This document shows positions 1-32,572 of a stretch of 64,000 nt of DNA, one piece after another. Origin of the DNA: Parcubacteria group bacterium (lineage in GTDB: Bacteria; Patescibacteriota; Minisyncoccia; Moranbacterales; UBA9337). The notes under the pieces are model-generated. The model saw only the letters and a list, made by a program, of their open reading frames with translations, was not told the DNA's origin and searched no databases. Position numbers and translations under genes: made by a program. Position 1 is the stretch's first letter. Every line of letters begins with the position of its first letter. The stretch spans positions 11,714 through 75,713 of the forward strand of contig JBAZSW010000001.1 in the NCBI GenBank assembly GCA_041662245.1. Direction: 5' to 3'.

Positions 1-2610
1 CTGTGCCCATATCTCCATTTGCTGGGACAAACTCAAATTTTTATGCGACCACTTTTGCTTCCAATAATGTTCGTCATAGTGTCACTAATACTGCCACTAA
101 TGCCATGAATTTTTATTATTCTTTTCAAAATATTCAAACTTATACAGGAGCCAACACTATTTTAGTTAATTATGAAGGAGCTTATGTGAGTGCCACCACT
201 TTAACTTACAACTTAGCTATTTACAATTTCAACTCTAGCGGTTGGGAAGATCTGCACACGGGAGCGATTACCGCCAGTGCTACCAGCACCGATCAAGTTA
301 ATCAATTTGCTAAAAACAATGTAACCTTAACTGACTATATTTCTAGTGGAGAAGTGAGAATTAGAATTTATTCAACCGTTACCGGTACTCAAACCTTTCA
401 ATCTGATATGATTGCCATTACGGTGGGTTCGACTAATACGGATGTCACTCAAAGCGAAACCTCTTTTGGCCAAGAAACAGGGAGTACTACCGCTACCAAT
501 ACTCGTGATTTAGATGTGTTAACTACATCGACTGCTGGTAATACTTGGCAACATGCTACTTGTTTAAATAATGCGATTGCCGGAGCTTGTACGGCCGTCA
601 CTTATCCTTATGCGACTGATTGGGCAGGAACTTGGGGAACCAATTACAGCGCTTCTGCCAATGTTTTCGTGCCTATTACAGTGCCTACTGATGCTTCGGT
701 CACCGGTATCAGATATGCTGCTAGATTTAGAAGTAATGTTACAACTAATGCTGTACAACTTGGAATCAAAGATTATTCCGGACAATTTGCAGGACCAACG
801 GTGGCTGGAGGTTGGACCGCTGTAGGTGCTACTAATGCTTTGACTACTTTTACTTTTACTGATGGAATTTACCAAGTTAATCCAGAAGACTATATTGATA
901 CTATTAATAATCGAGGCAATTTAAGATTAAGAACTTCTACTTCGACTGCTACGGCTACCGCTACTAGAGCTTGGGATTTTGCGTTTATGAGTATACGATG
1001 GATTAATGACACAGTACCGAGACCGACATCCCTCAGCCAATTCTCTCCTACTGACTATTTTTACAATGCTTCCACTACTACTATTAATGCCGCTTCAGCT
1101 ACTAGCTTAAGATCTCACCGCGGAGCTGTGGCTACTGATAACGTTTTCTTTTCTACTGCCAACATTGCCAACCAAGCTTTGGAAGTGGGGGTTAATTTGG
1201 GCAATGTATCTTTAAATGGAGCTAATAAAATAATAATTGCTTCTGAAACTGCTAATGTAACTACAGCCAGAAATTATTTTGTTCAAATTTGTGATTGGAG
1301 TTCTACAGTGGGAGTAAATAATGCAGCCGATTCCAATTGCACTGGAGGAGGTTGGAGAACGATTAATAATCCTCGCACTACAGCTCTATCTAATGTCTCT
1401 GACGCTACTTATACTTATGAAGTTTTTAATGGCTATTTTTATTCCGGTACTGCTCCCGGAACTAAAATTGATACTCCTTTAACCAACTTTGTTTCTTCGG
1501 GTAGTTTTAAAGTTAGATATTTAGGAGCCACCAATGCTTCAGCAATTACTTTTAATATTGATCGTGTTATGGTAGAAACAGCCATTGATCCTGTCTACTA
1601 TCCATCTTCTTCTGTGCCCATATCTCCATTTGCTGGGACAAACTCAAATTTTTATGCGACCACTTTTGCTTCCAATAATGTTCGTCATAGTGTCACTAAT
1701 ACTGCCACTAATGCCATGAATTTTTATTATTCTTTTCAAAATATTCAAACTTATACAGGAGCCAACACTATTTTAGTTAATTATGAAGGAGCTTATGTGA
1801 GTGCCACCACTTTAACTTACAACTTAGCTATTTACAATTTCAACTCTAGCGGTTGGGAAGATCTGCACACGGGAGCGATTACCGCCAGTGCTACCAGCAC
1901 CGATCAAGTTAATCAATTTGCTAAAAACAATGTAACCTTAACTGACTATATTTCTAGTGGAGAAGTGAGAATTAGAATTTATTCAACCGTTACCGGTACT
2001 CAAACCTTTCAATCTGATATGATTGCCATTACGGTGGGTTCGACTAATACGGATGTCACTCAAAGCGAAACCTCTTTTGGCCAAGAAACAGGGAGTACTA
2101 CCGCTACCAATACTCGTGATTTAGATGTGTTAACTACATCGACTGCTGGTAATACTTGGCAACATGCTACTTGTTTAAATAATGCGATTGCCGGAGCTTG
2201 TACGGCCGTCACTTATCCTTATGCGACTGATTGGGCAGGAACTTGGGGAACCAATTACAGCGCTTCTGCCAATGTTTTCGTGCCTATTACAGTGCCTACT
2301 GATGCTTCGGTCACCGGTATCAGATATGCTGCTAGATTTAGAAGTAATGTTACAACTAATGCTGTACAACTTGGAATCAAAGATTATTCCGGACAATTTG
2401 CAGGACCAACGGTGGCTGGAGGTTGGACCGCTGTAGGTGCTACTAATGCTTTGACTACTTTTACTTTTACTGATGGAATTTACCAAGTTAATCCAGAAGA
2501 CTATATTGATACTATTAATAATCGAGGCAATTTAAGATTAAGAACTTCTACTTCGACTGCTACGGCTACCGCTACTAGAGCTTGGGATTTTGCGTTTATG
2601 AGTATACGAT
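1..2610 (+). repeat. Tandem direct repeat inside the large surface-protein gene. nt 1-999 are identical to nt 1612-2610, period 1611 bp (537 aa).
   Basis: Identical strings at both ends and in the middle of the two copies were checked by eye. Shadow ORFs 564..875 and 2175..2486 (and 571..825 / 2182..2436) translate identically. Copy 1 may extend upstream of the window. Confidence 0.85.
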
Positions 2611-3602
2611 ATACTTATTTAAATGGAGGAATATCTCCTTCAATTACTGTTGATACGACAGGCACTCAAACAGCTACCATGAACATTCCTTCCAGCAATC
2701 AATCTGTAGGAGGAGCTTTTACTATGATTAGAAATTCTGGCTCCGCTAATGTTACCGGAATAACTATTACAGAAACAGGAACAGTAGTAGCTAACACTAA
2801 TTTAGCTAATGTAAAACTTTTTTACGACACGACTAATTGTACTTATGATGGAACGGAATCCCAATTTGGTAGTACCACCACTTTTAATGCTTCAGCTAAG
2901 GCTTCTTTTAGTGGGTCTGTTTCGGTGGGAACTTCTCAGGTTTGTTTTTATGCTATGTTAGATGTAGGTTCGGGAGCCAGTGGTGGAGAAACTCTCGAAA
3001 TTCAAATTGCTGATCCATCCACAGAAGTAACGGCTTCAGCAGGAACTGTTACTCCTGCTTCGGCTGTGTCAATTTCCGGAACTACAACTTTAAATGCGGG
3101 ATCATTGGGGGGAGATATAGTGGATGATGTTGGCAATACAGTAGCTAATCCTTCAGTATCTTTTTCTACGGGACTTTATAATTGGAGCAGTCAGCAATCC
3201 ACTGGAACACTAGGTATATCTACTCAAAAAATAAGAATTACTAATACCAGTGGAACACCTAGTTGGACACTTTCAATTGCGGCTGCTGCCAATACTAATC
3301 TTTGGACAAGTGGAGGAAACACTTATGATTTTAATGATACTGTTACTACAGGAAGACTGAATGTTGACCCCAGCGTGTCAACAATTACTCCTCAAGGCGG
3401 TTGTTCTACTACGGGACTAAGCAAGGGCTCTTCAACTTATTTTTCTCAAGGAACACAAGACTCAGTTAATCTAGTTGTGGCGGGAGGAACTGCTCAAACT
3501 AATTGTTATTGGGATATTACTGGTATTAGTATGACTCAAGATGTGCCAGCTTCTCAGCTAGTGGGTAGTTATGGGTTAAATATGGTTTTAACTGCTATTT
3601 GA
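3..3602 (+). CDS. Large Thr/Ser/Asn-rich secreted surface protein, 5'-truncated by the window edge. It contains a perfect tandem duplication and a C-terminal WxL-like domain.
   Basis: Single 1199-aa ORF running in from the window start. The C-terminal ~150 aa (about nt 3150-3602) is paralogous to the two downstream small proteins. It has an FxFxT...RIR...SWTLSIA first motif and a YWDITG...SYGLNMVLTAI terminal motif that resemble the two WxL motifs of Firmicutes WxL surface proteins. Confidence 0.6.
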   Translation: MPISPFAGTNSNFYATTFASNNVRHSVTNTATNAMNFYYSFQNIQTYTGANTILVNYEGAYVSATTLTYNLAIYNFNSSGWEDLHTGAITASATSTDQVNQFAKNNVTLTDYISSGEVRIRIYSTVTGTQTFQSDMIAITVGSTNTDVTQSETSFGQETGSTTATNTRDLDVLTTSTAGNTWQHATCLNNAIAGACTAVTYPYATDWAGTWGTNYSASANVFVPITVPTDASVTGIRYAARFRSNVTTNAVQLGIKDYSGQFAGPTVAGGWTAVGATNALTTFTFTDGIYQVNPEDYIDTINNRGNLRLRTSTSTATATATRAWDFAFMSIRWINDTVPRPTSLSQFSPTDYFYNASTTTINAASATSLRSHRGAVATDNVFFSTANIANQALEVGVNLGNVSLNGANKIIIASETANVTTARNYFVQICDWSSTVGVNNAADSNCTGGGWRTINNPRTTALSNVSDATYTYEVFNGYFYSGTAPGTKIDTPLTNFVSSGSFKVRYLGATNASAITFNIDRVMVETAIDPVYYPSSSVPISPFAGTNSNFYATTFASNNVRHSVTNTATNAMNFYYSFQNIQTYTGANTILVNYEGAYVSATTLTYNLAIYNFNSSGWEDLHTGAITASATSTDQVNQFAKNNVTLTDYISSGEVRIRIYSTVTGTQTFQSDMIAITVGSTNTDVTQSETSFGQETGSTTATNTRDLDVLTTSTAGNTWQHATCLNNAIAGACTAVTYPYATDWAGTWGTNYSASANVFVPITVPTDASVTGIRYAARFRSNVTTNAVQLGIKDYSGQFAGPTVAGGWTAVGATNALTTFTFTDGIYQVNPEDYIDTINNRGNLRLRTSTSTATATATRAWDFAFMSIRYTYLNGGISPSITVDTTGTQTATMNIPSSNQSVGGAFTMIRNSGSANVTGITITETGTVVANTNLANVKLFYDTTNCTYDGTESQFGSTTTFNASAKASFSGSVSVGTSQVCFYAMLDVGSGASGGETLEIQIADPSTEVTASAGTVTPASAVSISGTTTLNAGSLGGDIVDDVGNTVANPSVSFSTGLYNWSSQQSTGTLGISTQKIRITNTSGTPSWTLSIAAAANTNLWTSGGNTYDFNDTVTTGRLNVDPSVSTITPQGGCSTTGLSKGSSTYFSQGTQDSVNLVVAGGTAQTNCYWDITGISMTQDVPASQLVGSYGLNMVLTAI

Positions 3603-3743: not shown

Positions 3744-4403
3744 ATGAAAACAAAAATAATCAATTTAATAGTTAAGAGAATCGGAGTTATTTCGATAATT
3801 GTTTTTAGTGTGATTGCCATTAGGGCTTCGGCTAGCAATCAATCTCAATTAAATCAATCTATTAGCGATGGGGTTAAAGCTATCGATATTGTAGATGCAG
3901 GTGGAACTACAGTAACGAGTCCTTCGGTTTCATTTACATCAGCTACTTTTTCTTTTACTACCCAAAATACTACAGGAACATTGGGTGTTTCAGCTCAAAG
4001 AATTCGTGTTTATAATCCCACTTCTACTGCTACTTGGACAGCCAGTATTGCTGGAAGCGCCCCGACTGCCACTTGGACGACAGGAAGTGCTTATTATGAT
4101 TTTAATGACGGCAATGGTGCCACTGATGGCGGAGATACTGATTCTTACGGAGGACAGTTATCTGTCGCTCCGGCAGGAGGAACTTTAGCGGGAGTATCGG
4201 GATGTGCAACGAGTAATGTTTCATTGGGATCCAACAGCGCTTTCGTGGAAACAACTACCAATAGTATAACTCTTGCCTCAGGTGCTGCAGGCGCCCCGAC
4301 TTACTGTCGCTGGGACGTAACTGATATCGGGCTTACTCAATCATTGCCTGCTTCTCAGACATCAGGTTCCTATGCCCTAAATCTTGTGTTATCGATAATT
4401 TAA
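3744..4403 (+). CDS. Small secreted WxL-like domain protein, paralog 1.
   Basis: N-terminal signal/TM (MKTKIINLIVKRIGVISIIVFSVIAIRASA). The body is paralogous to the C-terminus of the upstream giant protein: FSFTT...RIRVYNP...TWTASIAG, then CRWDVTDIGLTQSLP...SGSYALNLVLSII. Confidence 0.7.
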   Translation: MKTKIINLIVKRIGVISIIVFSVIAIRASASNQSQLNQSISDGVKAIDIVDAGGTTVTSPSVSFTSATFSFTTQNTTGTLGVSAQRIRVYNPTSTATWTASIAGSAPTATWTTGSAYYDFNDGNGATDGGDTDSYGGQLSVAPAGGTLAGVSGCATSNVSLGSNSAFVETTTNSITLASGAAGAPTYCRWDVTDIGLTQSLPASQTSGSYALNLVLSII

Positions 4404-4407
4404 AAAA

Positions 4408-5073
4408 ATGAAAATGAAAATAATTAATTTGTTAGCTAAACAGATAGGAACAGTTGCATTGATTGTTTTGGTTATGTTTGCTATTAAAACTTCAGCCAAT
4501 AATCAATCCCAATTAAATCAGTCAGTTAGCGATGGGGTTAAAGCTATCGATATTGTGGATGCGGGCGGAACTACAGTAGCGAGTCCTTCGGTTTCATTTA
4601 CATCAGCTACTTTTTCTTTTGCTACGCAAGATACTACAGGAACATTGGGTGTTTCGGCTGAAAGGATTCGTATTTTTAATCCTACGGCTACAGCTACTTG
4701 GACAGCCAGTATTGCCGGAAGCGCTACAACTGCTACTTGGACGACAGGAAGTGCTTATTATGATTTTAATGATGCTACTGGAAGTGGATATACTGATGGC
4801 GCAGATACCGATGTTTATGGAGGACAGTTAAATATAGCACCTGCAGGAGGAACTCTAGCGGGAGTATCCGGATGTGTGACAACCAACGTTTCCTTGGGGT
4901 CTAATAGTGCTTTTAGTGAAGGAAGTATAGATAGTATCACACTTGCTTCTGGAGCAGCAGGAGCGTCTACTTTTTGTCGATGGGATGTGACCAATATTGG
5001 CTTAACTCAAAAAATGCCCGCTTCACAAGTTTCAGGATCGTATGCTTTAAATCTGGTGCTATCAATAATTTAA
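4408..5073 (+). CDS. Small secreted WxL-like domain protein, paralog 2. Tandem duplicate of the previous gene.
   Basis: About 80% identical to the 3744..4403 product with the same motifs. It starts 5 nt after that gene's stop codon. Confidence 0.7.
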   Translation: MKMKIINLLAKQIGTVALIVLVMFAIKTSANNQSQLNQSVSDGVKAIDIVDAGGTTVASPSVSFTSATFSFATQDTTGTLGVSAERIRIFNPTATATWTASIAGSATTATWTTGSAYYDFNDATGSGYTDGADTDVYGGQLNIAPAGGTLAGVSGCVTTNVSLGSNSAFSEGSIDSITLASGAAGASTFCRWDVTNIGLTQKMPASQVSGSYALNLVLSII

Positions 5074-5106: not shown

Positions 5107-5134
5107 ATCCACGTTAGTTAGTGGATTTTTTTTA
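5107..5134 (+). terminator. Intrinsic terminator: atccac / gtggat stem followed by a T8 run.
   Basis: Hairpin plus U-run immediately after the second small WxL-like gene. Confidence 0.5.
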
Positions 5135-5200
5135 TTGGTGTGCTATAATTTAGGTAATTAAAAAACTGATTATTAAAAAATAAAATTGTAAAAATAAAAT

Positions 5201-7471
5201 ATGAAAACAAAAATATTATTGAGTAGTTTTTTTCTGCTACTTTTTTTTGGGTTTTTGATTCAACCTGCTCATGCTATTGAATACGGGCAAATGGGTGGTA
5301 AGCCGACTAATTTTGATCCCAATATTCCCGATAGTAAATCTTGGTTTATTTATAATTTAGATCTTGGAACAGAAAAAGAAGATTCTTTAACTGTGGCTAA
5401 CTTATTTAATGAACCATGGATAGCTGTAATTTATGCAGCAGATAGCATTAAGAGTTCCAGTGGTGGATTTGCCCTCAAACAGTTAACTGAGTCTAAAGAA
5501 GAAATGGGATCTTGGGTAAAATTTTATCCAGATCCAAAACCAGAATTTGCTAGTAAAATTTTTGAAGAGAAAAAAACTATCAATGAAGTGTGTAAGGTTA
5601 CTGATGAAGATTTGGAGAAAAAATATGAGTTTGATTCAGAAAAAATAACTAAAATCAGAGATTGGTGCAAGGGGAAAGAAATAGTAGAACTCGAAATGAA
5701 AGCAGGAGAAAAAAAGGATTTATTGTTTGTAATTAGTGTGCCTGCTAATGCTGAAGTGGGGGAGCATACGGGAGGAATTCTGATTCAAAAAAAAGCCAAG
5801 GATGAAACTGCTCAAAGCGATGGTTCCAAAGTAATGCTAACCACTCGAGTGGGAGTTAGAATTTACGAGACCGTACCAGGAAATATTATTAAAAGATTAG
5901 CTTTTTCTGATTTTAAAATTGTAAAAAATTTCGATGAATTTTATTTGCCTTGGAATAAACAGAAAAAAGAAAAATTCAAAGAATATATATTGTCATCTTC
6001 TATTAACAATAGTGGAAATGTAAGTACCAATTTTAGTGAAAATATAATTATTAAAAATTTAATTACTCAAAAAACAGAAAGAATTGACAATCGAGAGTTT
6101 CAAGTTTTGAGAAGTGATGATTTTATTTCGACTTTAGCTTGGAAAGCTCCTCGTTTAGCGTATCTTTCTTTTCAAAAAGAATATACCTATAAAGATAGTG
6201 CAGATAATGAACAAAAAATATCCACGGAGGCAATTTCTAAATGGTTTATCCCTTGGAGAGAAATGTTAATTATTTTGGTCATTGTTTTGATTATTTGGAT
6301 AAGCTATTTTTTCTGGAAGAGATACCAAGACAAACATTATGGAGGAGCAGGCTGGGAGGATTATGAAGTAGCAGAAGGAGAAACTGTGCAGTCGCTAATT
6401 AATAAATTTTCTATAGATTGGAAGACTTTTATTAAGACAAATAAACTGAAAGCCCCTTACATTTTAGAAGTAGGAAAAATTGTAAAAGTTCCTAAAACAG
6501 AAACAGAAAAGCCAGCAAAAATAGAACCAGACGTTCAAATCATTCCTGAGAATAAGTCCAATGATGCCGTAACAGATGAAGGTGTTGGAGAGGGCGAATT
6601 GTCAGATGAAGATATTTTAAATAGAACGGAGCTTTTTGATAGTGCTGTGGAAAACAAAAAAATAGAAAGTGTCAAGATAAGTGAGCCAGATAAAGATTCT
6701 TCCAAGAATGATATTATTGATAGCTCCCTTTTCTTCGATGATTTAGAAGATAGTCAGGCGGTTATCGTTCCTAATAAAGTGGAATCTTTATCTGTGAATG
6801 AATCCAAGAAAAAGGTTTCAAATGCTCAACCCCTCAGAAGAAGTACAGATATTCAAAAACCGAAAGTAGCAGTTGTCGAAGCTCCCGTTGCAGAAGTTAA
6901 GGAAAAGAGTGCAGAGGCGGTAGCCGTAGATGACATTATAACCATCGAGGCGGACAAAGATAATTCGACAAATTATTTAAAGTGGGTTCTCGTGGCTCTA
7001 TCTTTGATAATAATATTATTGCTGGGTATCGTGGGGTACCTTTTGGTGGGTAATAAAAAAGAGATTAAAGCACCTATCCAAACAGCAGAAGTTTCTAGCG
7101 AAAATAAAGAAGCTACTCCCCAAAAAGAAGATACTCTTAGTAAGGATAGTAATGAAAATGAACAAGTAGAGATTTTAAAGAATGATCCTTTAAAAATGGA
7201 GATCAAAATATTTAATGGCAGTGGAATTGCGGGAGCAGCTGGAAAAGTAAAAGATTTTTTGGTCAGCAAGAAATATGAGAATGTCGAAGCAGGAAATTAT
7301 TCGGGAGAAAACGTTGTGGGTTCAACAGTCTATTATAAGGAGGATGCTTTGAAAGATGAAGCTCAATGGATTGCCGATATTTTAAAGGGTAATAAACTAT
7401 TGACTGACACAAAATTAGCATCTTCAGATGAAGAAAAATCTGGAGACATCGTAATTATCATTGGAAAATAA
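5201..7471 (+). CDS. Multidomain envelope protein. Signal peptide, then a DUF916-like (CscA-like) extracellular domain, a TM helix, a LysM domain, a second TM helix and a C-terminal LytR_C-like domain.
   Basis: LysM: YEVAEGETVQSLINKFSIDWKTFIKTNKLKAPYILEVGKIVKVP. LytR_C: MEIKIFNGSGIAGAAGKVKDFLVSKKYENVEAGNYSGENVVGSTVYYKEDALKDEAQWIADIL. The N-terminal SWFIYNLDLGTEKEDSLTVANLFNE...VIYAADS and PANAEVGEHTGGILIQ...RVGVRIYE resemble the DUF916 pattern. TM helices at WREMLIILVIVLIIWISYFFW and WVLVALSLIIILLLGIVGYLLVG. Confidence 0.55.
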   Translation: MKTKILLSSFFLLLFFGFLIQPAHAIEYGQMGGKPTNFDPNIPDSKSWFIYNLDLGTEKEDSLTVANLFNEPWIAVIYAADSIKSSSGGFALKQLTESKEEMGSWVKFYPDPKPEFASKIFEEKKTINEVCKVTDEDLEKKYEFDSEKITKIRDWCKGKEIVELEMKAGEKKDLLFVISVPANAEVGEHTGGILIQKKAKDETAQSDGSKVMLTTRVGVRIYETVPGNIIKRLAFSDFKIVKNFDEFYLPWNKQKKEKFKEYILSSSINNSGNVSTNFSENIIIKNLITQKTERIDNREFQVLRSDDFISTLAWKAPRLAYLSFQKEYTYKDSADNEQKISTEAISKWFIPWREMLIILVIVLIIWISYFFWKRYQDKHYGGAGWEDYEVAEGETVQSLINKFSIDWKTFIKTNKLKAPYILEVGKIVKVPKTETEKPAKIEPDVQIIPENKSNDAVTDEGVGEGELSDEDILNRTELFDSAVENKKIESVKISEPDKDSSKNDIIDSSLFFDDLEDSQAVIVPNKVESLSVNESKKKVSNAQPLRRSTDIQKPKVAVVEAPVAEVKEKSAEAVAVDDIITIEADKDNSTNYLKWVLVALSLIIILLLGIVGYLLVGNKKEIKAPIQTAEVSSENKEATPQKEDTLSKDSNENEQVEILKNDPLKMEIKIFNGSGIAGAAGKVKDFLVSKKYENVEAGNYSGENVVGSTVYYKEDALKDEAQWIADILKGNKLLTDTKLASSDEEKSGDIVIIIGK

Positions 7472-7527: not shown

Positions 7528-7893
7528 ATGCGGGTGAACTTTTTTTTAAAAATAATTTGGGTGATTATTCTATTTGTTAGTTTACAAATTATCTCAATTA
7601 ATAAAGTTGTGGCGAATAATCTGAGTTGTTCTCAGAGTATTTTACCTGTGAAATTTATTTATATGTCTAGACAGGGAGGGATAGACAATATTTGGAGTAA
7701 TGTAGGCCAGTCGGATGACATTTATGTAATCAAATTTTTTAATGAAAAAAAAGAGGAACTTCCTACTAGTAGAAATTTATTTTCTCAATATGTTTTGGGT
7801 TCTCAGAAAGACATTGTTGAGAAAAACAAAACCCAAGAAATTAGATTTTCTAGCAGAGATAATTTTTTGGAGGAAATTAGAACTATTGTTTGA
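7528..7893 (+). CDS. Hypothetical small secreted protein.
   Basis: ORF with an N-terminal hydrophobic segment. No recognisable family. Confidence 0.4.
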   Translation: MRVNFFLKIIWVIILFVSLQIISINKVVANNLSCSQSILPVKFIYMSRQGGIDNIWSNVGQSDDIYVIKFFNEKKEELPTSRNLFSQYVLGSQKDIVEKNKTQEIRFSSRDNFLEEIRTIV

Positions 7894-7959: not shown

Positions 7960-10900
7960 TTACTTTTTTTCTTTAATAAAAGTAATAAATAATACCGGCA
8001 CCAAAAACAAAGTTAAAAATGAAGATAACACAAGACCAAAGATAACGGCGCTCCCAAGAGCTCGCCACATTTCGTTAGAGAGAGTGATGGGTATTATTCC
8101 AAAAATAGTGCAAATGGAAGTAACAAAGATTGCTTCTAATCTAGATTTTCCCGCATCAATTACTGAATCATAAAATGGAATATTACTTTTAATGTTAAGA
8201 TTTATTTTATCAATCAAAATAATAGCATTTTTAACTACGATTCCAAAGAGAGCTAAAATTCCAATTAATCCTGGAAAACTCAAGCTGATTCCAAAGATGG
8301 CTAATCCGAGGAATGTCCCAATAAGAGCAAGGGGTAAAGTCACCAAGACGATAGCAGATTTTTTGAAAGAATTAAATTGGATAATCATTGTGGAAAAGAT
8401 TAAGATACCTGCAATAATCATTGCTCGCAATATGGAGGCAACCGACTCGGCATTTTGTTCATTTTCTCCTCCGTAAGTAATAGTGTAACCTTCGGGCAAT
8501 TGATAGCTATCCTTTAATTTTTTTTGAAACTCAGCTAAGATCTGATTAGAATTAGTAGTTTTTTTTGCATCTGCAGTTAAAAGAACAACTCTTTTTTGAT
8601 CAATATGCTCAATTGATTCTACTGATGGCTTTAGCTCAATTTTGGCTACATCTTTAATATAGACTGGCTGACCTAATTTATTTAATATCTGTAAATTTTG
8701 AATTGACTCCAGAGAGGGTATTTTAGTTTCATCAAATTTTGCTACGATATCAATAGTTTTATTGCCAGAAATTATTTTGGAAACAGTCGTTCCTGAGATA
8801 GCCATTCTCAAAGTACTACCCACTAGAGAGGCGTTTAAGTTGTAAAGTTCCATCTTGGCCACATCAAGTTTAAAAGTGTATTCTGCCGGAGAGTCTTTTA
8901 GGGAAATGTCGCTGTTAATAGTCCCTGAAATTGAATCTAAAATGGGTTTCAAGTCAGAAGCAATTTTGTCTAGGGTCTGAAGATCATCGCCAATTATTTG
9001 GGCTTGGAAAGCTGCTCCGGAAGGCGGTCCCCCTGAAGGACTACTCACAGTAATCACTGCTTCTTGGATGCCTTTGATATCATTCCTTATTTCATCGGCT
9101 AATTCATAAGATTTTTTAGTTCTCTCTTTTTCAGAAACTAATTTTATCGTTATAGAAGCGGTATTAGAACTGCTTTTTGTTAAACCTATCCTATGACCAC
9201 CCAATCCCGGATTGCCTACCAATGTCGAAAAATTTTCTATTTCAGGATATTTATAGAGATTTTCCTCCACTCGTTGGATAATTTTATCGGATTGTTGTAA
9301 ATTGAGTCCAGAAGGTGCACGCATACTAACGTAAATTTCTTCACTGTCTGATGCAGTAAAAAATTCAGTTTTGACAATTCCAAAAAAGGGAAGTGCCATT
9401 GAAAAAATAAAAAGAATTAAAATAAAAGAAATAAAGGTCCAACGTGTCCTTTTTGTTTTGGTTATCTTTTTAAGATAATTTTCATAAATAGGCAAGACTT
9501 TGTCGAAATGAATAATTCCGTGAATTAACTTTTGGGAAAAGTCATTGGATTCTTGATTGCCTTGAGAAAGAAGTTTCTTTTTTATAAGTTCGTCATCTTT
9601 CCACTCCTGCTGTGCTAGTAAATCGTTTCTTTCTAAAATGTTTTGTCCTTTTTTAAAATACCAAAAGAGCATCCAAAAAATAATAGCAAGAAATATTATA
9701 GCAAAAATATATCCATAAATATTGTGTAAAGTGATGCTAAAAATTCCAAACAACAATAAAAGAGAAATAATTAAAAGGAAGAATTTTTTGGTCATTCGAA
9801 TTCTTTCCAGTACCGCTGCTAGAGGATGATTTATCATAAGAGCAATAAGTAAAGAAGAAACTAGCGTTACAGAAACCGTAATGGGGATTGATTTGATATA
9901 TTCCCCGATCATTCCGCTGGCCATAAGTAAAGGCAAAAAGGCCCAAACGGTAGCTAGCGTTGTCGTGGTAAGTACAATTTTAAAATCGTTCAGTACCAAT
10001 AATACGGCTTCTTCGGGAGTGAATTTACCAGTTTTCATATATTGTTTGGTAGCGCTTACTACCACGATTGCGTCATCAACTAATAATCCTAACGCAAGTA
10101 GAAGAGAGAAAATTGAAAGAAAATTTAAAGATGTTCCCGTAGCTAACATCACGCCGAAAGTAGAGAAGAAAACTAGTGGAATAGCTAAGCCAGCCACAAA
10201 GGCTTCCTTGAGCCCTACCACCAAAAACAAAACGCCTACTACTAGAATTAGTGTAATGATAAAATCATGAGCCAATTGATCAAAGTCTTGTTTAATTAAA
10301 TCGGCTTGGTTTACAGTAGTAAAGTAACTAAATCCTTGGGGAAAATTTTTGATTTGATCTTCAATTATTGTTTTTGATTGACTGACGGTGTCAAGAATAG
10401 ATCCACCTGTTCTTTTTACAATTTGGATGCTAACTGCTTCTTGAGTTGGGTCTCCTTTATTAGAAAAACGAGAGATAACTGTTTTTTTGATAGCTTTTTC
10501 TTCTACTTTGGCAATATCTTTTAAATAAACTATAGAATTATTTTGTCCATGTAAGATAGGAATATTTCCTAGATCTTGAGCATTGTAAAAACGAGCATCA
10601 GTTCTGACGGGATAATCGTATTTTGTTCCTTCAAAATTTCCCGAAGGAATAGCTATATTAGTAGCTGAAACAATTTGGTTGGCTTGTTCTGGAGAAATAT
10701 TAAAAAATGACAATTTCTCAGGATCGTAAGAAATATCAAACTCTCGCTCATCTCCTCCAGAAATATTTACTTCACGAATATCAGATACTTTTTCTAATTC
10801 AGTCTGAATTTTTTCAGCGTATTCTCTAAGAACAAATCCATTATAAGGTCCGGTTAATTCAAAGGTGACAATAGGCGTATCATCTAAAGATATCTCCACC

Positions 10901-11388
10901 ACTTCTGGATCGTTGGCTTCAGAGGGGATGTCACTGCGAATAGTGGATAATTTATCGCGAAGTTTTCTGATAGATCCTTCTAGATCTTGCTTGGCATCGA
11001 ATTCAACAGTTACTGAGGAAAAAGAGTTGGTAGATTGAGAAGTAATTTTGTTTATCCCAGAAATTCCCGAAATATCTGTTTCAATTTTTTTGGTAACCAA
11101 TTCTTCTACATCAGCCGGAGAGGCTCCCGGATAGACAGCCGTGACTATGGCTGTAGGTATTTTTACTTCAGGGCTAGATTCGCGCGGAAGTTTTATATAA
11201 GAGTATATTCCCCAACCAGAAAGAAGCATTATCAACAAAACTACTACTCTAAAATTAACTATAAAAAAATTAAGCCAACCTTTAGTTAACTCTGGATTAA
11301 ATTTAAGTCTTTCTAAATAAGCCAAATCACTGGATTTAATTTGCTTTTCTTTCGGCTTATTGCTGCTTGAAGTGAATGTATTTTTCAT
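7960..11388 (-). CDS. RND-family efflux transporter permease (AcrB/MMPL-like).
   Basis: 1142-aa protein. Multiple TM clusters and AcrB-like periplasmic loop motifs (TAIVTAVYPGASPADVEELVTKKIE). Confidence 0.8.
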   Translation of the reverse strand: MKNTFTSSSNKPKEKQIKSSDLAYLERLKFNPELTKGWLNFFIVNFRVVVLLIMLLSGWGIYSYIKLPRESSPEVKIPTAIVTAVYPGASPADVEELVTKKIETDISGISGINKITSQSTNSFSSVTVEFDAKQDLEGSIRKLRDKLSTIRSDIPSEANDPEVVEISLDDTPIVTFELTGPYNGFVLREYAEKIQTELEKVSDIREVNISGGDEREFDISYDPEKLSFFNISPEQANQIVSATNIAIPSGNFEGTKYDYPVRTDARFYNAQDLGNIPILHGQNNSIVYLKDIAKVEEKAIKKTVISRFSNKGDPTQEAVSIQIVKRTGGSILDTVSQSKTIIEDQIKNFPQGFSYFTTVNQADLIKQDFDQLAHDFIITLILVVGVLFLVVGLKEAFVAGLAIPLVFFSTFGVMLATGTSLNFLSIFSLLLALGLLVDDAIVVVSATKQYMKTGKFTPEEAVLLVLNDFKIVLTTTTLATVWAFLPLLMASGMIGEYIKSIPITVSVTLVSSLLIALMINHPLAAVLERIRMTKKFFLLIISLLLLFGIFSITLHNIYGYIFAIIFLAIIFWMLFWYFKKGQNILERNDLLAQQEWKDDELIKKKLLSQGNQESNDFSQKLIHGIIHFDKVLPIYENYLKKITKTKRTRWTFISFILILFIFSMALPFFGIVKTEFFTASDSEEIYVSMRAPSGLNLQQSDKIIQRVEENLYKYPEIENFSTLVGNPGLGGHRIGLTKSSSNTASITIKLVSEKERTKKSYELADEIRNDIKGIQEAVITVSSPSGGPPSGAAFQAQIIGDDLQTLDKIASDLKPILDSISGTINSDISLKDSPAEYTFKLDVAKMELYNLNASLVGSTLRMAISGTTVSKIISGNKTIDIVAKFDETKIPSLESIQNLQILNKLGQPVYIKDVAKIELKPSVESIEHIDQKRVVLLTADAKKTTNSNQILAEFQKKLKDSYQLPEGYTITYGGENEQNAESVASILRAMIIAGILIFSTMIIQFNSFKKSAIVLVTLPLALIGTFLGLAIFGISLSFPGLIGILALFGIVVKNAIILIDKINLNIKSNIPFYDSVIDAGKSRLEAIFVTSICTIFGIIPITLSNEMWRALGSAVIFGLVLSSFLTLFLVPVLFITFIKEKK

Positions 11389-11418
11389 TGAACTTGAATT
11401 AAGATTAAGGGAGATTAA

Positions 11419-12492
11419 TTATTTGTTTTTTACAGTAACTTTATCTCCATCTTGAAGTAGTTTATTGCCCTCTAAAATGATTTGAGTTTCAGCTGTAATA
11501 TCGGTTTTAATTTCAGCCATTTCTCCATCAACTCTAACAATTTTCACGCTCACTTTTTGTGCTTGATTATTTTTATTTATGAATATAAAACTTTCATTTT
11601 GTCCAATAGTAATAGCCGAAAGAGGCAATATCAAATTTCCAGCTGTTTGCGGAGAATAGTTGAAATCAAAAGTTACTGTTACTACAGAGCCAATAATTAG
11701 AGGTTTTTTATCATTGGGCATTGCTTCAATGAGGAATCTTTTGGTAGTTTCGTCCGCTTGAGGAGCTATTTTGGTTACTTTTCCTTCGATAGTGACATCG
11801 TTTTCAGTTATAAAAATGTCCGAACCAATTTTCAAATTAGCCACTTCATTTTTGTCTACGAAAAATTGGACTTTAGTTAAATCGGTTTTGGATAGTGTAG
11901 CTAATGTTTGTCCAAGATTAACAGAATCTCCTTGAGAAATATATTTTTGAATAATAGTTCCGGTTATAGGGGCGGTAAGTAGTTGATTGTCCAGTGATCC
12001 ATTTAGGGCATTTTGAGCAGCGATTAGGTTTATTTTAGCTATTTCTCTGGTCTTTTTATTAGCGTAAGATTGAGTCTTTTGATAGTTTTCTTTAGCTAAC
12101 TTGTAGCTTTTTTCGGCAGATTGAACTGCTGACTCTAGAGCTTGAATTTGTCCACTTCTCAAGCCATTCTCTCCAACAGTAGAATTATTACCACGAGAGT
12201 CAATGGTGATTATATTTTGCCCCAGATAGACCTTTTTGCCTAAATCAAAGTTGAGCTTGGTGATAGTTCCGCTGGCAGTAGCGATAATATTGACCTGTTG
12301 GTCGCTGGCGATAATGGCAGGGTATCGGATACTCTTTTTAAAAGTAGCGCTATCCTTGACACTTTGGGTGGTGATATTAATAGGATTTTTGGTGATAGCA
12401 TCTTCAACAACAGTTTTCTTTTGCGAAAATCTAAAAGCCAAAGTGACAATAACTAAAATAATTATAAAAGAAGCGAATAACTTTAATTTCAT
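11419..12492 (-). CDS. Efflux RND/HlyD-family periplasmic adaptor subunit.
   Basis: N-terminal TM, coiled-coil region and beta-barrel/lipoyl-like segments. Immediately upstream of the RND permease in the same orientation. Confidence 0.75.
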   Translation of the reverse strand: MKLKLFASFIIILVIVTLAFRFSQKKTVVEDAITKNPINITTQSVKDSATFKKSIRYPAIIASDQQVNIIATASGTITKLNFDLGKKVYLGQNIITIDSRGNNSTVGENGLRSGQIQALESAVQSAEKSYKLAKENYQKTQSYANKKTREIAKINLIAAQNALNGSLDNQLLTAPITGTIIQKYISQGDSVNLGQTLATLSKTDLTKVQFFVDKNEVANLKIGSDIFITENDVTIEGKVTKIAPQADETTKRFLIEAMPNDKKPLIIGSVVTVTFDFNYSPQTAGNLILPLSAITIGQNESFIFINKNNQAQKVSVKIVRVDGEMAEIKTDITAETQIILEGNKLLQDGDKVTVKNK

Positions 12493-12511
12493 ACATTTTT
12501 AGATTAGATAA

Positions 12512-12976
12512 TTATTTATTAAAGATTTCTTTTAGTTTAGAATCTTCCTCTTCTAGAAAAATTATTAATTTTTGCATAAATTTTATGTGGCCAGAAATTT
12601 CTTTTCTAGAAAAATATTTTTCTTTGGACAGATGAAATTTTTTAATTTTTTGCATAGCTTCTTTAACCTTGCTTTCCCCTAGCGAAGTTATTTTTAAAAA
12701 AGTTTCTCTCCCATCTTTATTATTTTCATTCTTTATCCTAATAATGAAACCATTCCTCTCTAAGATAGCCAGTCTTTGGCTAATATTAGACTTGGATTTA
12801 CCGGTTAGCCGTATTAATTCCTTGGCAGTAGTGGTTTTCTTGCTATTTACATAACCAAGAACTCGCATAGAGGATAGCGACATATTCATAGGGCCAAAAA
12901 TATATTTATTGGCCATGGATTCAATTTTTTCTCCGATAAAGATAAAATCTTCAGAGGGAATTTTTATACATGGCAT
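12512..12976 (-). CDS. MarR-family winged-helix transcriptional regulator.
   Basis: TTAKELIRLTGKSKSNISQRLAILERNGFIIR helix-turn-helix. Heads the adaptor-RND operon. Confidence 0.7.
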   Translation of the reverse strand: MPCIKIPSEDFIFIGEKIESMANKYIFGPMNMSLSSMRVLGYVNSKKTTTAKELIRLTGKSKSNISQRLAILERNGFIIRIKNENNKDGRETFLKITSLGESKVKEAMQKIKKFHLSKEKYFSRKEISGHIKFMQKLIIFLEEEDSKLKEIFNK

Positions 12977-13169: not shown

Positions 13170-14366
13170 ATGCAATACTCAGTTTCAAAAAAACTAAAAG
13201 TTTCTTTAATAATCCTATTGGGAATAGTGGTGGTCTTAGGGTTGGTATTAATTTTTAAAAAAATATCTGATAATAAGAAGGCTCAAGACAAAATTATTTT
13301 TGAAAATAAAGGGGATGAGTATTGGGAAGACGATTCTAAATTAAGATCTCTTTTGCCAATAGATAGTTTTACTCCCCCGCCTCCTCCTCCCAAGATGGAA
13401 AAGATGAAGACTGCTGGTTGCGTGGCAGATGGGGTATTGAATGATTATACTTCTGGCACTGATGGATTGATAAAGCTTATCAATCGATCAAACTGTTATT
13501 ATTTGCATCGTGCCATTGAAACTTGGTTGGAACCGCCTGATTTTAAAGAAATCACTAAAAATATTCAAAAAATTCAAAAAGTGGATATTGTTTATGGGAT
13601 GTTTATTGCTGAAGCTATTGATACTAAAGCGAATTATTACTATGATACGGGCGGTAGAGATTTTGATTTTGATAAAATGTGTCGAGATGGAAGTAAAAAT
13701 TTCTGGGGGGAGCATACGTGTAAGCCCACTTTATCCAAAAAAGAATATCAGCGATATGTATTAAATATTACCAAAAAAGCCATGGATCTAGGCGTGCAAA
13801 GTTTTATGTTTGGAGAGGTTTTTTATCAGGACTATGTTTCTGATCCATCAATTGGAACAGTAATGGAAAAGATGAGAAAATATGCTGCTCTAAAGGGGAT
13901 GAAAATTGTGATTGGAGCTCAGACGAATGATATTGAGGATGAAAGCTATTTAAGGCAGTTTGATTTTATTGAAGGCGGAGTAGGTCTAAATTCTAATGGT
14001 ACGATTGAAGACGGTCCTTGCTATTCAAGGTGGTATAAACAAGAAGGTGATTGGTGCTGGGCACTTCTTTGGCATGATAGATTTGCCAAAAAAGCCAATA
14101 ATGTTTTTACTCACTTGGACTGGAGTGGCAAAAGAGGAGATGATATGAGTACTTTTGCTTTAATGAGTCAAAATGAACGTGCTCGTACCCTTAAATATCT
14201 AGATGATTATTTCACCAAGAGAAATGTCGGCTTTCTGATGCCGATTTCCGCAATTCTTCCTAAAGATAATGGAGGATGCCACGGGCGATCGGAAAGATTT
14301 TATTCGGCTGATAATAAATATTCTTGTAAAGATGAGGACGCAATAAATAGCTTGTTGGAGCAGTAG
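13170..14366 (+). CDS. Hypothetical membrane-anchored extracytoplasmic protein with a poly-Pro linker.
   Basis: N-terminal TM, PPPPPPK linker, Cys-containing globular domain. No recognisable family. Confidence 0.45.
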   Translation: MQYSVSKKLKVSLIILLGIVVVLGLVLIFKKISDNKKAQDKIIFENKGDEYWEDDSKLRSLLPIDSFTPPPPPPKMEKMKTAGCVADGVLNDYTSGTDGLIKLINRSNCYYLHRAIETWLEPPDFKEITKNIQKIQKVDIVYGMFIAEAIDTKANYYYDTGGRDFDFDKMCRDGSKNFWGEHTCKPTLSKKEYQRYVLNITKKAMDLGVQSFMFGEVFYQDYVSDPSIGTVMEKMRKYAALKGMKIVIGAQTNDIEDESYLRQFDFIEGGVGLNSNGTIEDGPCYSRWYKQEGDWCWALLWHDRFAKKANNVFTHLDWSGKRGDDMSTFALMSQNERARTLKYLDDYFTKRNVGFLMPISAILPKDNGGCHGRSERFYSADNKYSCKDEDAINSLLEQ

Positions 14367-32356: not shown

Positions 32357-32572
32357 ATTTTTAATCTCGTGGCCTTATCTATTAAATTATAACAGATTAA
32401 TCCTCACTTTAGCACTATTTGAGAGTTTTTGCACGGATATAATTGCATAAGTGTCCGTATTTGCTATTTTTATCTTAAAGGTTTTATTGTTATAATAACC
32501 CATGAGATGATGGTTGTTGGAATATTAGAAAATTATCATTTAAATAAAATAAAAATTATTAATTTGTAATCT

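What the first reader, a model, noticed from the sequence alone, without database searches (positions are those of the whole stretch)
5201..7471. Unusual domain architecture: DUF916-like ectodomain, TM, LysM, TM, LytR_C
LysM (peptidoglycan binding) and LytR_C are both envelope-associated, but the simple topology prediction places LysM between two TM helices on the cytoplasmic side, which is odd. I do not recall seeing CscA-like, LysM and LytR_C fused in one protein. It could be the membrane anchor of the WxL-like complex.
Basis: partly seen in the sequence, partly recalled or inferred. Interest (0 to 1): 0.6.

Follow-up and report, generated by a model that had tools for sequence, protein, structure and literature searches.

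The report
WxLIP membrane anchor with cytoplasmic LysM
This is an intact, widely conserved surface-complex anchor protein of candidate-phyla-radiation (CPR) bacteria whose normally wall-binding LysM module is predicted to sit inside the cell between two membrane helices, which hints at a link between a surface adhesion complex and cell-wall precursor supply.

Summary
The 756-aa ORF at 5201..7471(+) is real and intact, and it has the stated architecture: signal peptide, two-Ig ectodomain, TM1, LysM, a disordered acidic linker of about 155 aa, TM2, LytR_C. Pfam, an AlphaFold2 model and a PDB fold search all support this; the top fold hits are the E. faecium WxLIP structures 9i1y and 9i25. It is not a fusion artefact. 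About 166 relatives from many CPR/Patescibacteria lineages follow a strict grammar: ecto-TM, ecto-TM-LysM, ecto-TM-LysM-TM, ecto-TM-LysM-TM-LytR_C or ecto-TM-TM-LytR_C. LysM always follows one TM, and LytR_C always follows two (87 of 87). Three further observations fit an out-in-out topology with LysM in the cytoplasm: the K/R bias at TM1 (C-flank richer in 93 of 96), an AxA cleavage site, and a cysteine pair confined to the ectodomain. The gene sits in a conserved cluster of one large and two small divergent WxL-like proteins, this protein, and a conserved 121-aa secreted protein. Best reading: a CPR-specific extended WxLIP (CscA) anchor. I infer that its cytoplasmic LysM binds lipid-linked GlcNAc precursors, as SpoVID's cytosolic LysM binds lipid II, and that its external LytR_C tethers the complex to sites of wall synthesis. 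It is a new variant of a known kind.

The parts
3..3602 (+). Large WxL-like surface protein. It is cut by the window start, with 1199 aa visible. Its C-terminal residues 1038-1199 (about nt 3114-3599) form the domain shared with the two small proteins.
   Evidence: ORF; the C-terminus is 44% identical to the small protein, E 2e-39; it matches the small-protein HMM at 9e-56; it contains a 999-bp perfect direct repeat.
3744..4403 (+). Small WxL-like secreted protein 1 (219 aa; N-terminal signal or anchor helix followed by one beta-rich domain)
   Evidence: 86 CPR homologs, none with a Pfam domain. AF2 pLDDT 90.7, all-beta; hhalign 93.7% probability, E 1.8e-7, to Pfam-positive WxL proteins of locus L002; no direct Pfam WxL hit and no PDB fold hit.
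4408..5073 (+). Small WxL-like secreted protein 2 (221 aa), a paralog of the previous one at 80% identity
   Evidence: (P0103).
5201..7471 (+). The finding: a 756-aa extended WxLIP (CscA-like) anchor protein
5201..5275 (+). Signal peptide (residues 1-25), with an A-x-A type cleavage site AHA|IEYG
   Evidence: alanine at position -1 is at least 90% conserved and the mature N-terminus IEYG is conserved.
5276..6250 (+). Ectodomain (residues 26-350) made of two Ig-like beta-sandwiches. The first is the PGBD/DUF916-like domain, about residues 26-228, with a helical insert at 102-156 that carries the only two cysteines, C131 and C156. The second is the HBD-like domain, about residues 229-350.
   Evidence: Pfam; pLDDT above 90; 9i1y and 9i25 WxLIP, E 2.4e-12, alignment spans both domains; exactly two Cys in 85 of 96 homologs.
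6254..6340 (+). TM1 (helix 352-380, hydrophobic core 355-372). It is preceded by the conserved IPWRE motif and followed by a basic KRYQDKHYGG stretch.
   Evidence: the C-flank has more K+R than the N-flank in 93 of 96 homologs.
6350..6496 (+). LysM domain (residues 384-432), canonical beta-alpha-alpha-beta fold, predicted to lie in the cytoplasm about 10 residues from the membrane
   Evidence: Pfam, above GA. (fold); the family profile hits glycan-binding LysM structures (Ecp6 1.3e-12, YaaH, LytE, CEBiP, SafA); conservation, including the family-specific W407/K408/K412/K417/P419.
6506..6967 (+). Acidic, intrinsically disordered linker (residues 436-589; 37 D/E against 20 K/R), predicted cytoplasmic
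   Evidence: composition. (pLDDT below 50); length is variable and the sequence is poorly conserved.
6968..7054 (+). TM2 (helix 590-617), the most hydrophobic segment of the protein
7190..7468 (+). LytR_C domain (residues 664-756), predicted extracytoplasmic. It is reached through a disordered spacer of about 45 aa (residues 619-663).
   Evidence: E 8.3e-13. PDB 2m5y, the M. tuberculosis LytR_C protein, E 0.0017. (pLDDT about 96); always preceded by a second TM.
7528..7893 (+). Conserved 121-aa protein with an N-terminal signal or anchor helix; the fifth member of the cluster
   Evidence: 34% identity, E 4e-19, to the same-position gene in L004; a homolog lies 16-136 bp downstream of the WxLIP-like gene in 17 places, 14 of them distinct loci (L001 duplicates the window, and L005 is a near-identical contig encoding the same WxLIP as L004), including Kerfeldbacteria and Microgenomates.

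Best explanation
The protein is a CPR/Patescibacteria-specific, extended version of WxLIP (CscA/DufA), the membrane-anchored scaffold of WxL-type cell-surface complexes.

Supported by direct evidence here: a cleavable signal peptide exports a two-Ig WxLIP ectodomain.

Inferred from homology to the E. faecium WxLIP-WxL complex: this ectodomain holds the large and small WxL-like proteins encoded just upstream.

Supported by family-wide signals: TM1 crosses from outside to inside, so the juxtamembrane LysM and the acidic disordered linker are cytoplasmic; TM2 crosses back, placing LytR_C outside.

Inferred mechanism: the two added modules tie the surface complex to sites of wall synthesis. The basic, membrane-proximal LysM would bind GlcNAc-containing lipid-linked precursors (lipid II or Und-PP-GlcNAc) on the inner leaflet, as the cytosolic LysM of B. 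subtilis SpoVID binds lipid II. The external LytR_C would self-associate or dock onto LCP-type wall ligases at nascent wall, as M. tuberculosis VirR does.

My confidence by step: WxLIP-type anchor about 0.85; out-in-out topology with cytoplasmic LysM about 0.75; lipid-linked precursor as the LysM ligand about 0.3.
For: Domains and fold: (top PDB hits 9i1y and 9i25, WxLIP, E 2.4e-12).

Real and conserved: 96 homologs, all from CPR MAGs where a source names the organism; 59 species-level loci across Moraniibacteriota, Paceibacterota, Kerfeld-, Komeili-, Peri-, Levy- and Saccharibacteria and Microgenomates; 752 representatives at 50% identity with E <= 1e-30.

Topology: (K+R in the TM1 C-flank 4.48 against 1.74 in the N-flank, C-flank richer in 93 of 96; TM2 N-flank 3.78 against 2.85, N-flank richer in 41 and C-flank richer in 13; exactly two Cys in the ectodomain in 85 of 96 and almost none elsewhere). 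(grammar over about 166 proteins: LysM only after one TM; LytR_C only after two TMs, 87 of 87; ecto-TM-TM-LytR_C forms exist without LysM, so a second TM is needed to put LytR_C on the ectodomain side). (in two members without LytR_C, the domain after TM2 gives a weak pilin-like T2SSG hit).

Cluster.

The organism makes peptidoglycan: the window holds a Mur ligase, a G5-DPBB protein and an SLT transglycosylase.

LysM is canonical and under constraint: (N414, G425 and P431 at or above 94%, plus a family-specific basic patch; mean net charge +2.8).
Against: No dedicated topology predictor or experiment was available. The topology rests on hydropathy, the positive-inside rule, the cysteine distribution and the domain grammar. 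In this particular protein the TM2 flanks do not favour the proposed orientation (2 K/R before, 3 after). In some homologs TM1 is only marginally hydrophobic (Kyte-Doolittle about 1.6-1.9). Nearly all characterised bacterial LysM domains are extracytoplasmic. Ligand binding by this LysM is untested, and the threonine of the GDT motif, which is critical in SpoVID (T532), is kept in only 57 of 90 members. SpoVID's LysM is acidic and this one is basic. The WxL identity of the window's neighbours is indirect. No LCP gene was found in the window, although not all ORFs were scanned.
Confidence: 0.55

Rival explanations
1. The topology is as proposed, but the cytoplasmic LysM is not a glycan or precursor binder. 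It would serve as a protein-protein, oligomerisation or anionic-membrane-binding module, for example clustering anchors or recruiting a cytoplasmic partner together with the acidic disordered linker.
For: SpoVID's LysM also binds a protein (SpoVK) independently of its glycan-binding residue (PMC11513918). The family LysM carries non-canonical, nearly invariant surface residues (W407, K408, K412, K417, P419) and a net positive charge. The GDT threonine is variable. Close homologs share short conserved motifs in the disordered linker.
Against: The domain retains the full canonical LysM signature, and its profile matches glycan-binding LysM structures at E down to 1e-12. No partner is identified, and no conserved cytoplasmic gene sits in the cluster.
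Confidence: 0.28
2. LysM is actually extracytoplasmic and binds mature peptidoglycan. On this view TM1 is not a stable membrane span (SAR-like release, cleavage, or translocation of a marginally hydrophobic helix), so the ectodomain and LysM are both outside and the standard topology rules mislead.
For: LysM domains are almost always extracytoplasmic (general knowledge). TM1 hydrophobicity is marginal in several homologs. In this protein the K/R count is slightly higher after TM2 than before it. A TM followed by LysM resembles YneA and ActS (NCBIfam partial hits).
Against: The K/R bias at TM1 is strong and nearly universal (93 of 96). Short forms (ecto-TM-LysM, 45 proteins) would have no membrane anchor at all. 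The long forms would then place LytR_C in the cytoplasm, contrary to its known position after extracellular LCP domains (PMC11481543, PMC11832169). The grammar that LytR_C requires exactly one more TM than LysM is unexplained if both lie on the same side.
Confidence: 0.12
3. The cluster is not a WxL-type wall-bound complex. It would be a pilus- or fibre-like system in which the two-Ig ectodomain acts as a PapD-like chaperone or platform and the small proteins are donor-strand-complemented subunits.
For: The ectodomain model also matches chaperone-usher chaperones (CfaA, FimC, Caf1M, PapD) at E about 1e-6. The small-protein model's best, non-significant PDB hits are the CfaB and FimG pilins and the archaeal cannula CanA. 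The window's small proteins fail Pfam WxL.
Against: The best structural matches by about four orders of magnitude in E-value are WxLIP itself. The family hits Pfam WxLIP_PGBD. CPR relatives have Pfam-positive WxL neighbours that are homologous to the window's small proteins. WxLIP-WxL binding itself uses beta-strand insertion (PMC10599100), so a resemblance to pilins is expected. No usher or sortase was seen in the cluster.
Confidence: 0.04
4. The architecture is an artefact: two or three neighbouring genes fused by a sequencing frameshift or by chimeric assembly.
For: None found. The upstream large gene does contain a suspicious perfect 999-bp repeat, so the assembly is not flawless everywhere.
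Against: The frame is uninterrupted. An identical protein lies on an independent Logan contig. Dozens of full-length homologs at 33-59% identity come from independent samples.
Confidence: 0.01

Closest known systems
WxLIP / CscA / DufA (DUF916-DUF3324-TM proteins of Firmicutes WxL clusters; PDB 9i1y, 9i25; PMC10599100)
   Same: Signal peptide. Two perpendicular Ig-like domains, which are the best PDB fold match. Pfam WxLIP_PGBD across the family. A TM helix directly after the second domain with a basic cytoplasmic flank. Encoded next to one large and one or more small proteins that share a C-terminal domain.
   Different: [quoted passage not shown] This protein adds about 380 residues: LysM, a disordered linker, a second TM and LytR_C. 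The second Ig domain does not hit Pfam DUF3324. The PGBD carries a cysteine-pair helical insert. The host lineage is CPR rather than Bacilli; 91% of known WxL sequences are in Firmicutes (PMC9772566).
SpoVID (B. subtilis spore-coat checkpoint protein) C-terminal LysM
   Same: A LysM domain that works on the cytoplasmic side of a membrane. It is the only documented bacterial case I could verify here in which the ligand is the inner-leaflet precursor lipid II (PMC11513918).
   Different: SpoVID is a soluble mother-cell protein with a SPOCS region, not a membrane protein. Its LysM is acidic (pI 4.8) and masked by SpoIVA. There is no sequence relationship beyond the LysM fold, and the ligand of the CPR LysM is untested.
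LytR_C 'solo' proteins VirR (Rv0431, PDB 2m5y) and Cei (Rv2700) of M. tuberculosis
   Same: A TM or membrane-association segment, a disordered spacer and then a single LytR_C domain with no LCP catalytic domain. There is sequence similarity to 2m5y and an NCBIfam partial hit to Cei. These proteins are linked to wall remodelling at nascent wall.
   Different: Here the module is the C-terminal third of a larger surface-complex anchor. The function of LytR_C is unknown even in the model proteins (PMC11481543).
Bitopic TM-LysM proteins (YneA, ActS, NlpD-type activators)
   Same: LysM lies within about 10-20 residues of a single TM helix (NCBIfam partial hits at residues 357-439).
   Different: In those proteins the TM is an N-in signal anchor and LysM is outside. 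Here the TM follows an exported ectodomain and has its positive flank on the LysM side, which reverses the orientation.

Membership tests
WxLIP (WxL-interacting protein; CscA/DufA) | N-terminal signal peptide (secreted ectodomain) | tested here: met
   Hydrophobic residues 5-23 and an AHA|IE site; alanine at -1 is at least 90% conserved.
WxLIP (WxL-interacting protein; CscA/DufA) | PGBD = DUF916 domain (Pfam PF06030) | tested here: met
   This protein scores 21.6 bits, E 2.4e-4, below GA 27.3. However, 30 of 34 family members hit, best E 7.4e-15, and the fold matches 9i1y and 9i25 at E 2.4e-12.
WxLIP (WxL-interacting protein; CscA/DufA) | HBD = DUF3324 second Ig-like domain directly after the PGBD | tested here: inconclusive
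   No Pfam PF11797 hit in any member. AF2 shows a second beta-sandwich at residues 233-349, and the Foldseek alignment to WxLIP spans 324-329 columns, covering both domains.
WxLIP (WxL-interacting protein; CscA/DufA) | A single C-terminal TM helix that ends the protein | tested here: not met
   A TM helix is present at the expected place (352-380), but about 376 further residues follow it: LysM, linker, TM2 and LytR_C. This is the feature that makes it a variant. Canonical ecto-TM forms also exist in CPR (17 proteins).
WxLIP (WxL-interacting protein; CscA/DufA) | Encoded within four genes of at least two WxL proteins (cluster definition of PMC10599100) | tested here: inconclusive
   Three adjacent upstream genes share one C-terminal domain. 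That domain is only indirectly linked to WxL (hhalign 93.7%). WxL-like genes lie within 6 kb in most of the 64 places (the window and fetched loci) holding a WxLIP-like gene.
WxL domain (Pfam PF13731), for the neighbouring genes | Pfam WxL model match | tested here: not met
   None of 43 members of the small-protein family hits WxL at E <= 1. The L002 relatives' neighbours do pass it (25.1-28.7 bits against GA 25).
WxL domain (Pfam PF13731), for the neighbouring genes | Dual Trp-x-Leu motif | tested here: not met
   The first motif is W-T-L in the large protein (SWTLSI) but W-T-A in the small ones. The C-terminal motif lacks Trp (YALNLVLSII, YGLNMVLTAI). Read directly.
WxL domain (Pfam PF13731), for the neighbouring genes | WxL fold | tested here: inconclusive
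LysM domain (PF01476) | Sequence model and beta-alpha-alpha-beta fold | tested here: met
   27.8 bits against GA 20.9. 32 of 34 members hit, best E 1.3e-21. AF2 shows strand-helix-helix-strand at 385-431. The family profile hits Ecp6, YaaH, LytE, CEBiP and SafA.
LysM domain (PF01476) | Extracytoplasmic location and binding of GlcNAc-containing glycans | tested here: not met
   Location: every sequence-based signal places it in the cytoplasm. Binding cannot be tested with these tools.
LytR_C domain (PF13399) | Sequence model; C-terminal position after a TM or an extracellular region | tested here: met
   49.5 bits against GA 22.2. PDB 2m5y at E 0.0017. Always preceded by a second TM (87 of 87).
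LCP (LytR-CpsA-Psr) glycopolymer ligases | LCP catalytic domain (PF03816) | tested here: not met
   No LCP domain hit at E <= 1. The NCBI name 'LytR C-terminal domain-containing protein' should not be read as an LCP enzyme or as a transcriptional attenuator.

The most novel reading that the evidence does not exclude
In CPR bacteria the WxLIP anchor would be a trans-membrane coupling device. A cytoplasmic, membrane-apposed LysM reads or captures lipid II or Und-PP-GlcNAc on the inner leaflet, while the same polypeptide holds a WxL-type adhesin complex and a LytR_C module outside. Surface-complex (host-attachment) assembly would then be physically tied to the flux of wall precursors. This would be only the second known intracellular, precursor-binding LysM, and the first built into a surface-protein anchor.
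Probability: 0.25. Interest if true: 0.75.

Novelty: new variant of a known kind. Interest (0 to 1): 0.55.

Why it matters
WxL/Csc clusters are treated in the literature as a feature of Firmicutes, mainly gut Bacilli. A full-text search found no paper linking WxL or DUF916 to CPR/Patescibacteria. This work shows a large CPR-wide family of WxLIP anchors: 752 representatives at 50% identity with E <= 1e-30. The family carries stepwise additions on the cytoplasmic tail. CPR bacteria are tiny, and those studied so far live attached to host cells, yet their attachment machinery is poorly known. A conserved cluster with a huge variable adhesin-like protein and a dedicated anchor is therefore a concrete candidate for that machinery. 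The predicted cytoplasmic LysM gives a directly testable hypothesis about intracellular LysM function beyond the single SpoVID case. It also corrects the uninformative database name 'LytR C-terminal domain-containing protein'.

Tried and rejected
1. Frameshift or fusion artefact: rejected.
3. Foldseek of the small-protein model against the PDB gave only weak pilin, cohesin and cannula hits.
4. Profiles of the small proteins (A3) and of the Pfam-positive CPR WxL trio (A4) found no PDB sequence relative.
5. The family profile did not find 9i1y or 9i25 by sequence, only by structure.
6. Literature searches for WxL + Patescibacteria and for the phrases 'cytoplasmic/intracellular/cytosolic LysM' found nothing relevant.
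7. The Kbp/YgaU search returned only potassium-indicator papers, which I did not read. That E. coli Kbp is a cytoplasmic BON-LysM protein is my own recollection and was not verified here.
8. A re-entrant or hairpin TM1 was rejected: the helix is 29 residues with an 18-22 residue hydrophobic core and no conserved central Pro or Gly.
9. A sortase-type sorting signal at TM1 was rejected: there is no LPXTG motif and TM1 is not C-terminal.
10. The weak Pfam and NCBIfam hits over TM1 (DUF6097, Mbov_0395 pilin-like, FliL, and others) were treated as hydrophobic-segment noise.
11. The promoter and terminator scan found no more sites than chance.
Full report
**Observation.** The ORF at 5201..7471(+) is a single open frame of 756 aa. 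Pfam finds LytR_C (residues 667-756, E 8.3e-13) and LysM (388-431, E 2.5e-6), both above their gathering cut-offs (GA), and WxLIP_PGBD (= DUF916; 41-196, E 2.4e-4) just below its cut-off. Hydropathy shows three segments: an N-terminal signal peptide (5-23, AHA|IE), TM1 (354-372) and TM2 (596-614). An AlphaFold2 model built on 90 homologs has a mean pLDDT of 78.8. It is confident (pLDDT above 90) for a two-domain beta-sandwich ectodomain (about 30-350), a helix at 352-380, a beta-alpha-alpha-beta LysM at 385-431, a helix at 590-617 and LytR_C at 667-756. Residues 436-589 and 620-657 are disordered. Foldseek against the PDB ranks the recently released Enterococcus faecium WxLIP structures first (9i1y and 9i25, E 2.4e-12, TM-score normalised to the target 0.57-0.61, alignment spanning both Ig domains). 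Next come generic two-Ig proteins, including chaperone-usher chaperones at about 1e-6.

**Not an artefact, and not rare.** The identical protein is in NCBI (Parcubacteria group MAG, 217-kb contig) and on an independent Logan contig. Ninety-five further homologs, all from CPR MAGs wherever a source names the organism, include many full-length proteins at 48-59% identity. A scan of one genome per GTDB species found 59 loci. Nearly all are labelled Moraniibacteriota, Paceibacterota, Kerfeld-, Komeili-, Dojka-, Peri-/Peregrini-, Levy-, Gottesman- or Saccharibacteria, or Microgenomates. A few MAGs carry other labels, which I did not verify. A profile search of 1.84 billion representatives gives 752 proteins at E <= 1e-30. 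Family-wide, 30 of 34 sampled members hit Pfam WxLIP_PGBD (best E 7.4e-15), 32 of 34 hit LysM and 22 of 34 hit LytR_C.

**Topology.** No dedicated predictor was available, so I used four independent sequence signals across the family.

- The N-terminus is a canonical signal peptide. Alanine at position -1 and the mature N-terminus IEYG are conserved.
- The positive-inside rule holds. The 12 residues after TM1 carry 4.48 K+R on average, against 1.74 before it, and the C-flank is richer in 93 of 96 proteins. For TM2 the N-flank is richer (3.78 against 2.85; richer in 41, poorer in 13, equal in 19).
- Exactly two cysteines occur in the ectodomain in 85 of 96 proteins, and almost none occur elsewhere. 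This fits an exported, disulfide-bonded ectodomain.
- The domain grammar is the most telling signal. I scored about 166 family proteins with in-house HMMs and hydropathy:

| Architecture | Proteins |
|---|---|
| ecto-TM-LysM-TM-LytR_C | 80 (plus 2 with two LysM and 2 with two LytR_C) |
| ecto-TM-LysM | 45 |
| ecto-TM (canonical WxLIP) | 17 |
| ecto-TM-LysM-TM | 10 |
| ecto-TM-TM-LytR_C | 3 |
| ecto-TM-TM | 2 |
| ectodomain only, no TM found (three of the five run to a contig or locus end) | 5 |

LysM is never found after TM2. LytR_C is never found without a second TM (87 of 87). A module that needs one extra membrane crossing relative to LysM must lie on the opposite side from LysM. LytR_C follows the extracellular LCP domain in characterised proteins, and VirR acts at nascent wall (PMC11481543, PMC11832169). 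The consistent solution is ectodomain out, LysM and linker in, LytR_C out. There are two caveats. In this particular protein the TM2 flank counts are 2 before and 3 after. In some homologs TM1 is only marginally hydrophobic.

**Genomic context.** Upstream lie a large protein (3..3602, cut by the window edge) and two paralogous proteins of about 220 aa (3744..4403 and 4408..5073). The C-terminal 162 residues of the large protein are 44% identical to the small proteins (E 2e-39). This is the 'one large + small + WxLIP' layout that defines WxL/Csc clusters (PMC9772566, PMC10599100). The same order, including a conserved 121-aa secreted protein immediately downstream (7528..7893), recurs in P0051's locus and in many others. 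With HMMs of the small-protein family, WxL-like genes are found within 6 kb in most of the 64 places (the window and the fetched loci) that hold a WxLIP-like gene.

The link to bona fide WxL is indirect. None of 43 small-protein homologs hits Pfam WxL. The second W-x-L motif lacks its Trp. The confident AF2 model of the small protein (pLDDT 90.7) finds no significant PDB match. On the other hand, in the distant locus L002 the three small neighbours pass Pfam WxL (25.1-28.7 bits against GA 25), and the window's family aligns to them by hhalign at 93.7% probability, E 1.8e-7. I therefore call the neighbours divergent WxL-like proteins rather than WxL proteins.

**What it most likely does.**

- Well supported: it is the membrane anchor and scaffold (WxLIP, CscA) of this surface complex.
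- Inferred from the E. faecium complex 9i25 and PMC10599100: its PGBD captures the WxL-like domain of the large and small proteins by beta-strand insertion.
- The added modules are the novelty. A published precedent exists for a functional intracellular LysM. [quoted passage not shown]
- The CPR LysM is canonical. Its profile hits Ecp6, YaaH, LytE, CEBiP and SafA, and N414, G425 and P431 are each conserved in at least 85 of 90 members. It lies about 10 residues from the membrane. It carries a family-specific basic patch (W407, K408, K412, K417) and a mean net charge of +2.8.
- The window encodes a Mur ligase, a G5-DPBB protein and an SLT transglycosylase, so the organism makes peptidoglycan.

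My preferred mechanism is an inference with a probability of about 0.3. LysM engages lipid-linked GlcNAc precursors on the inner leaflet, and LytR_C self-associates or docks onto wall ligases outside. Together they would hold the surface complex at sites of wall synthesis. The main rival, at about 0.28, keeps the same topology but makes LysM a protein- or membrane-binding module. An extracytoplasmic LysM, with the topology rules failing, gets about 0.12. A pilus-like reading of the cluster gets about 0.04.

[quoted passage not shown] This protein fails one defining WxLIP feature, the terminal TM helix, because it continues for about 376 residues. It lacks an LCP domain, so it is neither an LCP ligase nor a 'transcriptional attenuator'. 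Full-text searches found no paper connecting WxL or DUF916 with CPR. I rate it a new variant of a known kind, of moderate interest.

Noticed in passing
window 1-999 and 1612-2610 (inside the large gene 3..3602): A 999-bp perfect direct repeat with 1611-bp spacing. It lies in frame, so the large WxL-like protein contains a duplicated block of about 537 aa that starts identically and then diverges (74% identity over the full 1611 bp). This could be a recent tandem duplication in a fast-evolving adhesin, or an assembly artefact. The repeat may extend beyond the window start.
   Followed up: partly
window 7528-7893: A 121-aa protein with an N-terminal hydrophobic helix and no Pfam domain. A homolog lies directly downstream (16-136 bp) of the WxLIP-like gene in 17 places, 14 of them distinct loci (L001 duplicates the window, and L005 is a near-identical contig encoding the same WxLIP as L004), including distant Kerfeldbacteria and Microgenomates. 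It is a likely fifth cluster component. It may be the counterpart of the small CscD/LPXTG protein of Firmicutes, but it has no LPXTG motif.
   Followed up: partly
window 5504-5668 (residues 102-156 of the main protein): A helical insert in the PGBD-like domain carries the protein's only two cysteines (C131 and C156, at least 90% conserved). It is present in the Parcubacteria/Moranbacteria-type members and absent from the more distant ones (P0090-P0096). It may be a clade-specific disulfide-stabilised lid or 'buttress'.
   Followed up: no
window about 6560-6720 (residues about 455-505, cytoplasmic linker): Within the otherwise unconserved acidic disordered linker, the closest homologs (P0001-P0004, P0014) share short motifs (ELSDEDILNRxELFD and DIxDSSLFF). 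These could be linear binding motifs for a cytoplasmic partner.
   Followed up: no
L002 8001-9743 (P0094) and P0096: Members with ecto-TM-LysM-TM but no LytR_C carry about 150 extra residues after TM2. These give a weak Pfam T2SSG (pseudopilin-like) hit (2 members, best E 0.0028). An extracellular pilin-like head after TM2 would fit the out-in-out topology.
   Followed up: partly
L019, L022, L026, L027, L029, L030: Kerfeldbacteria, Microgenomates, Peribacteria and related loci carry two or three tandem paralogous WxLIP-LysM genes interleaved with WxL-like genes, which suggests cluster amplification.
   Followed up: no
L022, L025, L028, L032, L037 (labelled Gammaproteobacteria), L040 (Bdellovibrionales), L046 (Pirellulales), L051 (Pseudomonadales), L059 (Clostridia): A few MAGs holding family members carry non-CPR taxonomic labels. 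Their locus architecture is like that of the CPR loci. This could be mis-binning or mislabelling, or genuine occurrence outside CPR; I did not check.
   Followed up: no
window 5107-5149: A terminator-like hairpin with a T-run (5107-5126) follows the second small gene, and an extended -10-like TGTGCTATAAT (about 5139-5149) lies about 50 bp upstream of the main ORF. The anchor gene may therefore be transcribed separately from the WxL-like genes. The number of consensus matches in the region is no greater than chance.
   Followed up: partly
window 7960-12976 (- strand): An RND efflux pump (ACR_tran, 1142 aa), a membrane-fusion protein (357 aa) and a MarR-family regulator (154 aa) lie immediately downstream on the opposite strand. 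A tripartite-type RND set is unusual for a presumed monoderm CPR cell.
   Followed up: no
window 31373-33847 and 46191-47342: Peptidoglycan-related genes lie elsewhere in the window: a G5-DUF348-DPBB (Rpf-like) protein, a Mur ligase and an SLT transglycosylase. The window also holds gyrB, uvrA, uvrB, uvrC and lgt, and three tRNAs (Gly-TCC, Ala-GGC, Glu-TTC).
   Followed up: partly
window 13170-14366: A 398-aa protein with an N-terminal TM helix, a PPPPPP tract and several cysteines has no Pfam match. It is conserved next to the cluster on the Logan contig L001.
   Followed up: no
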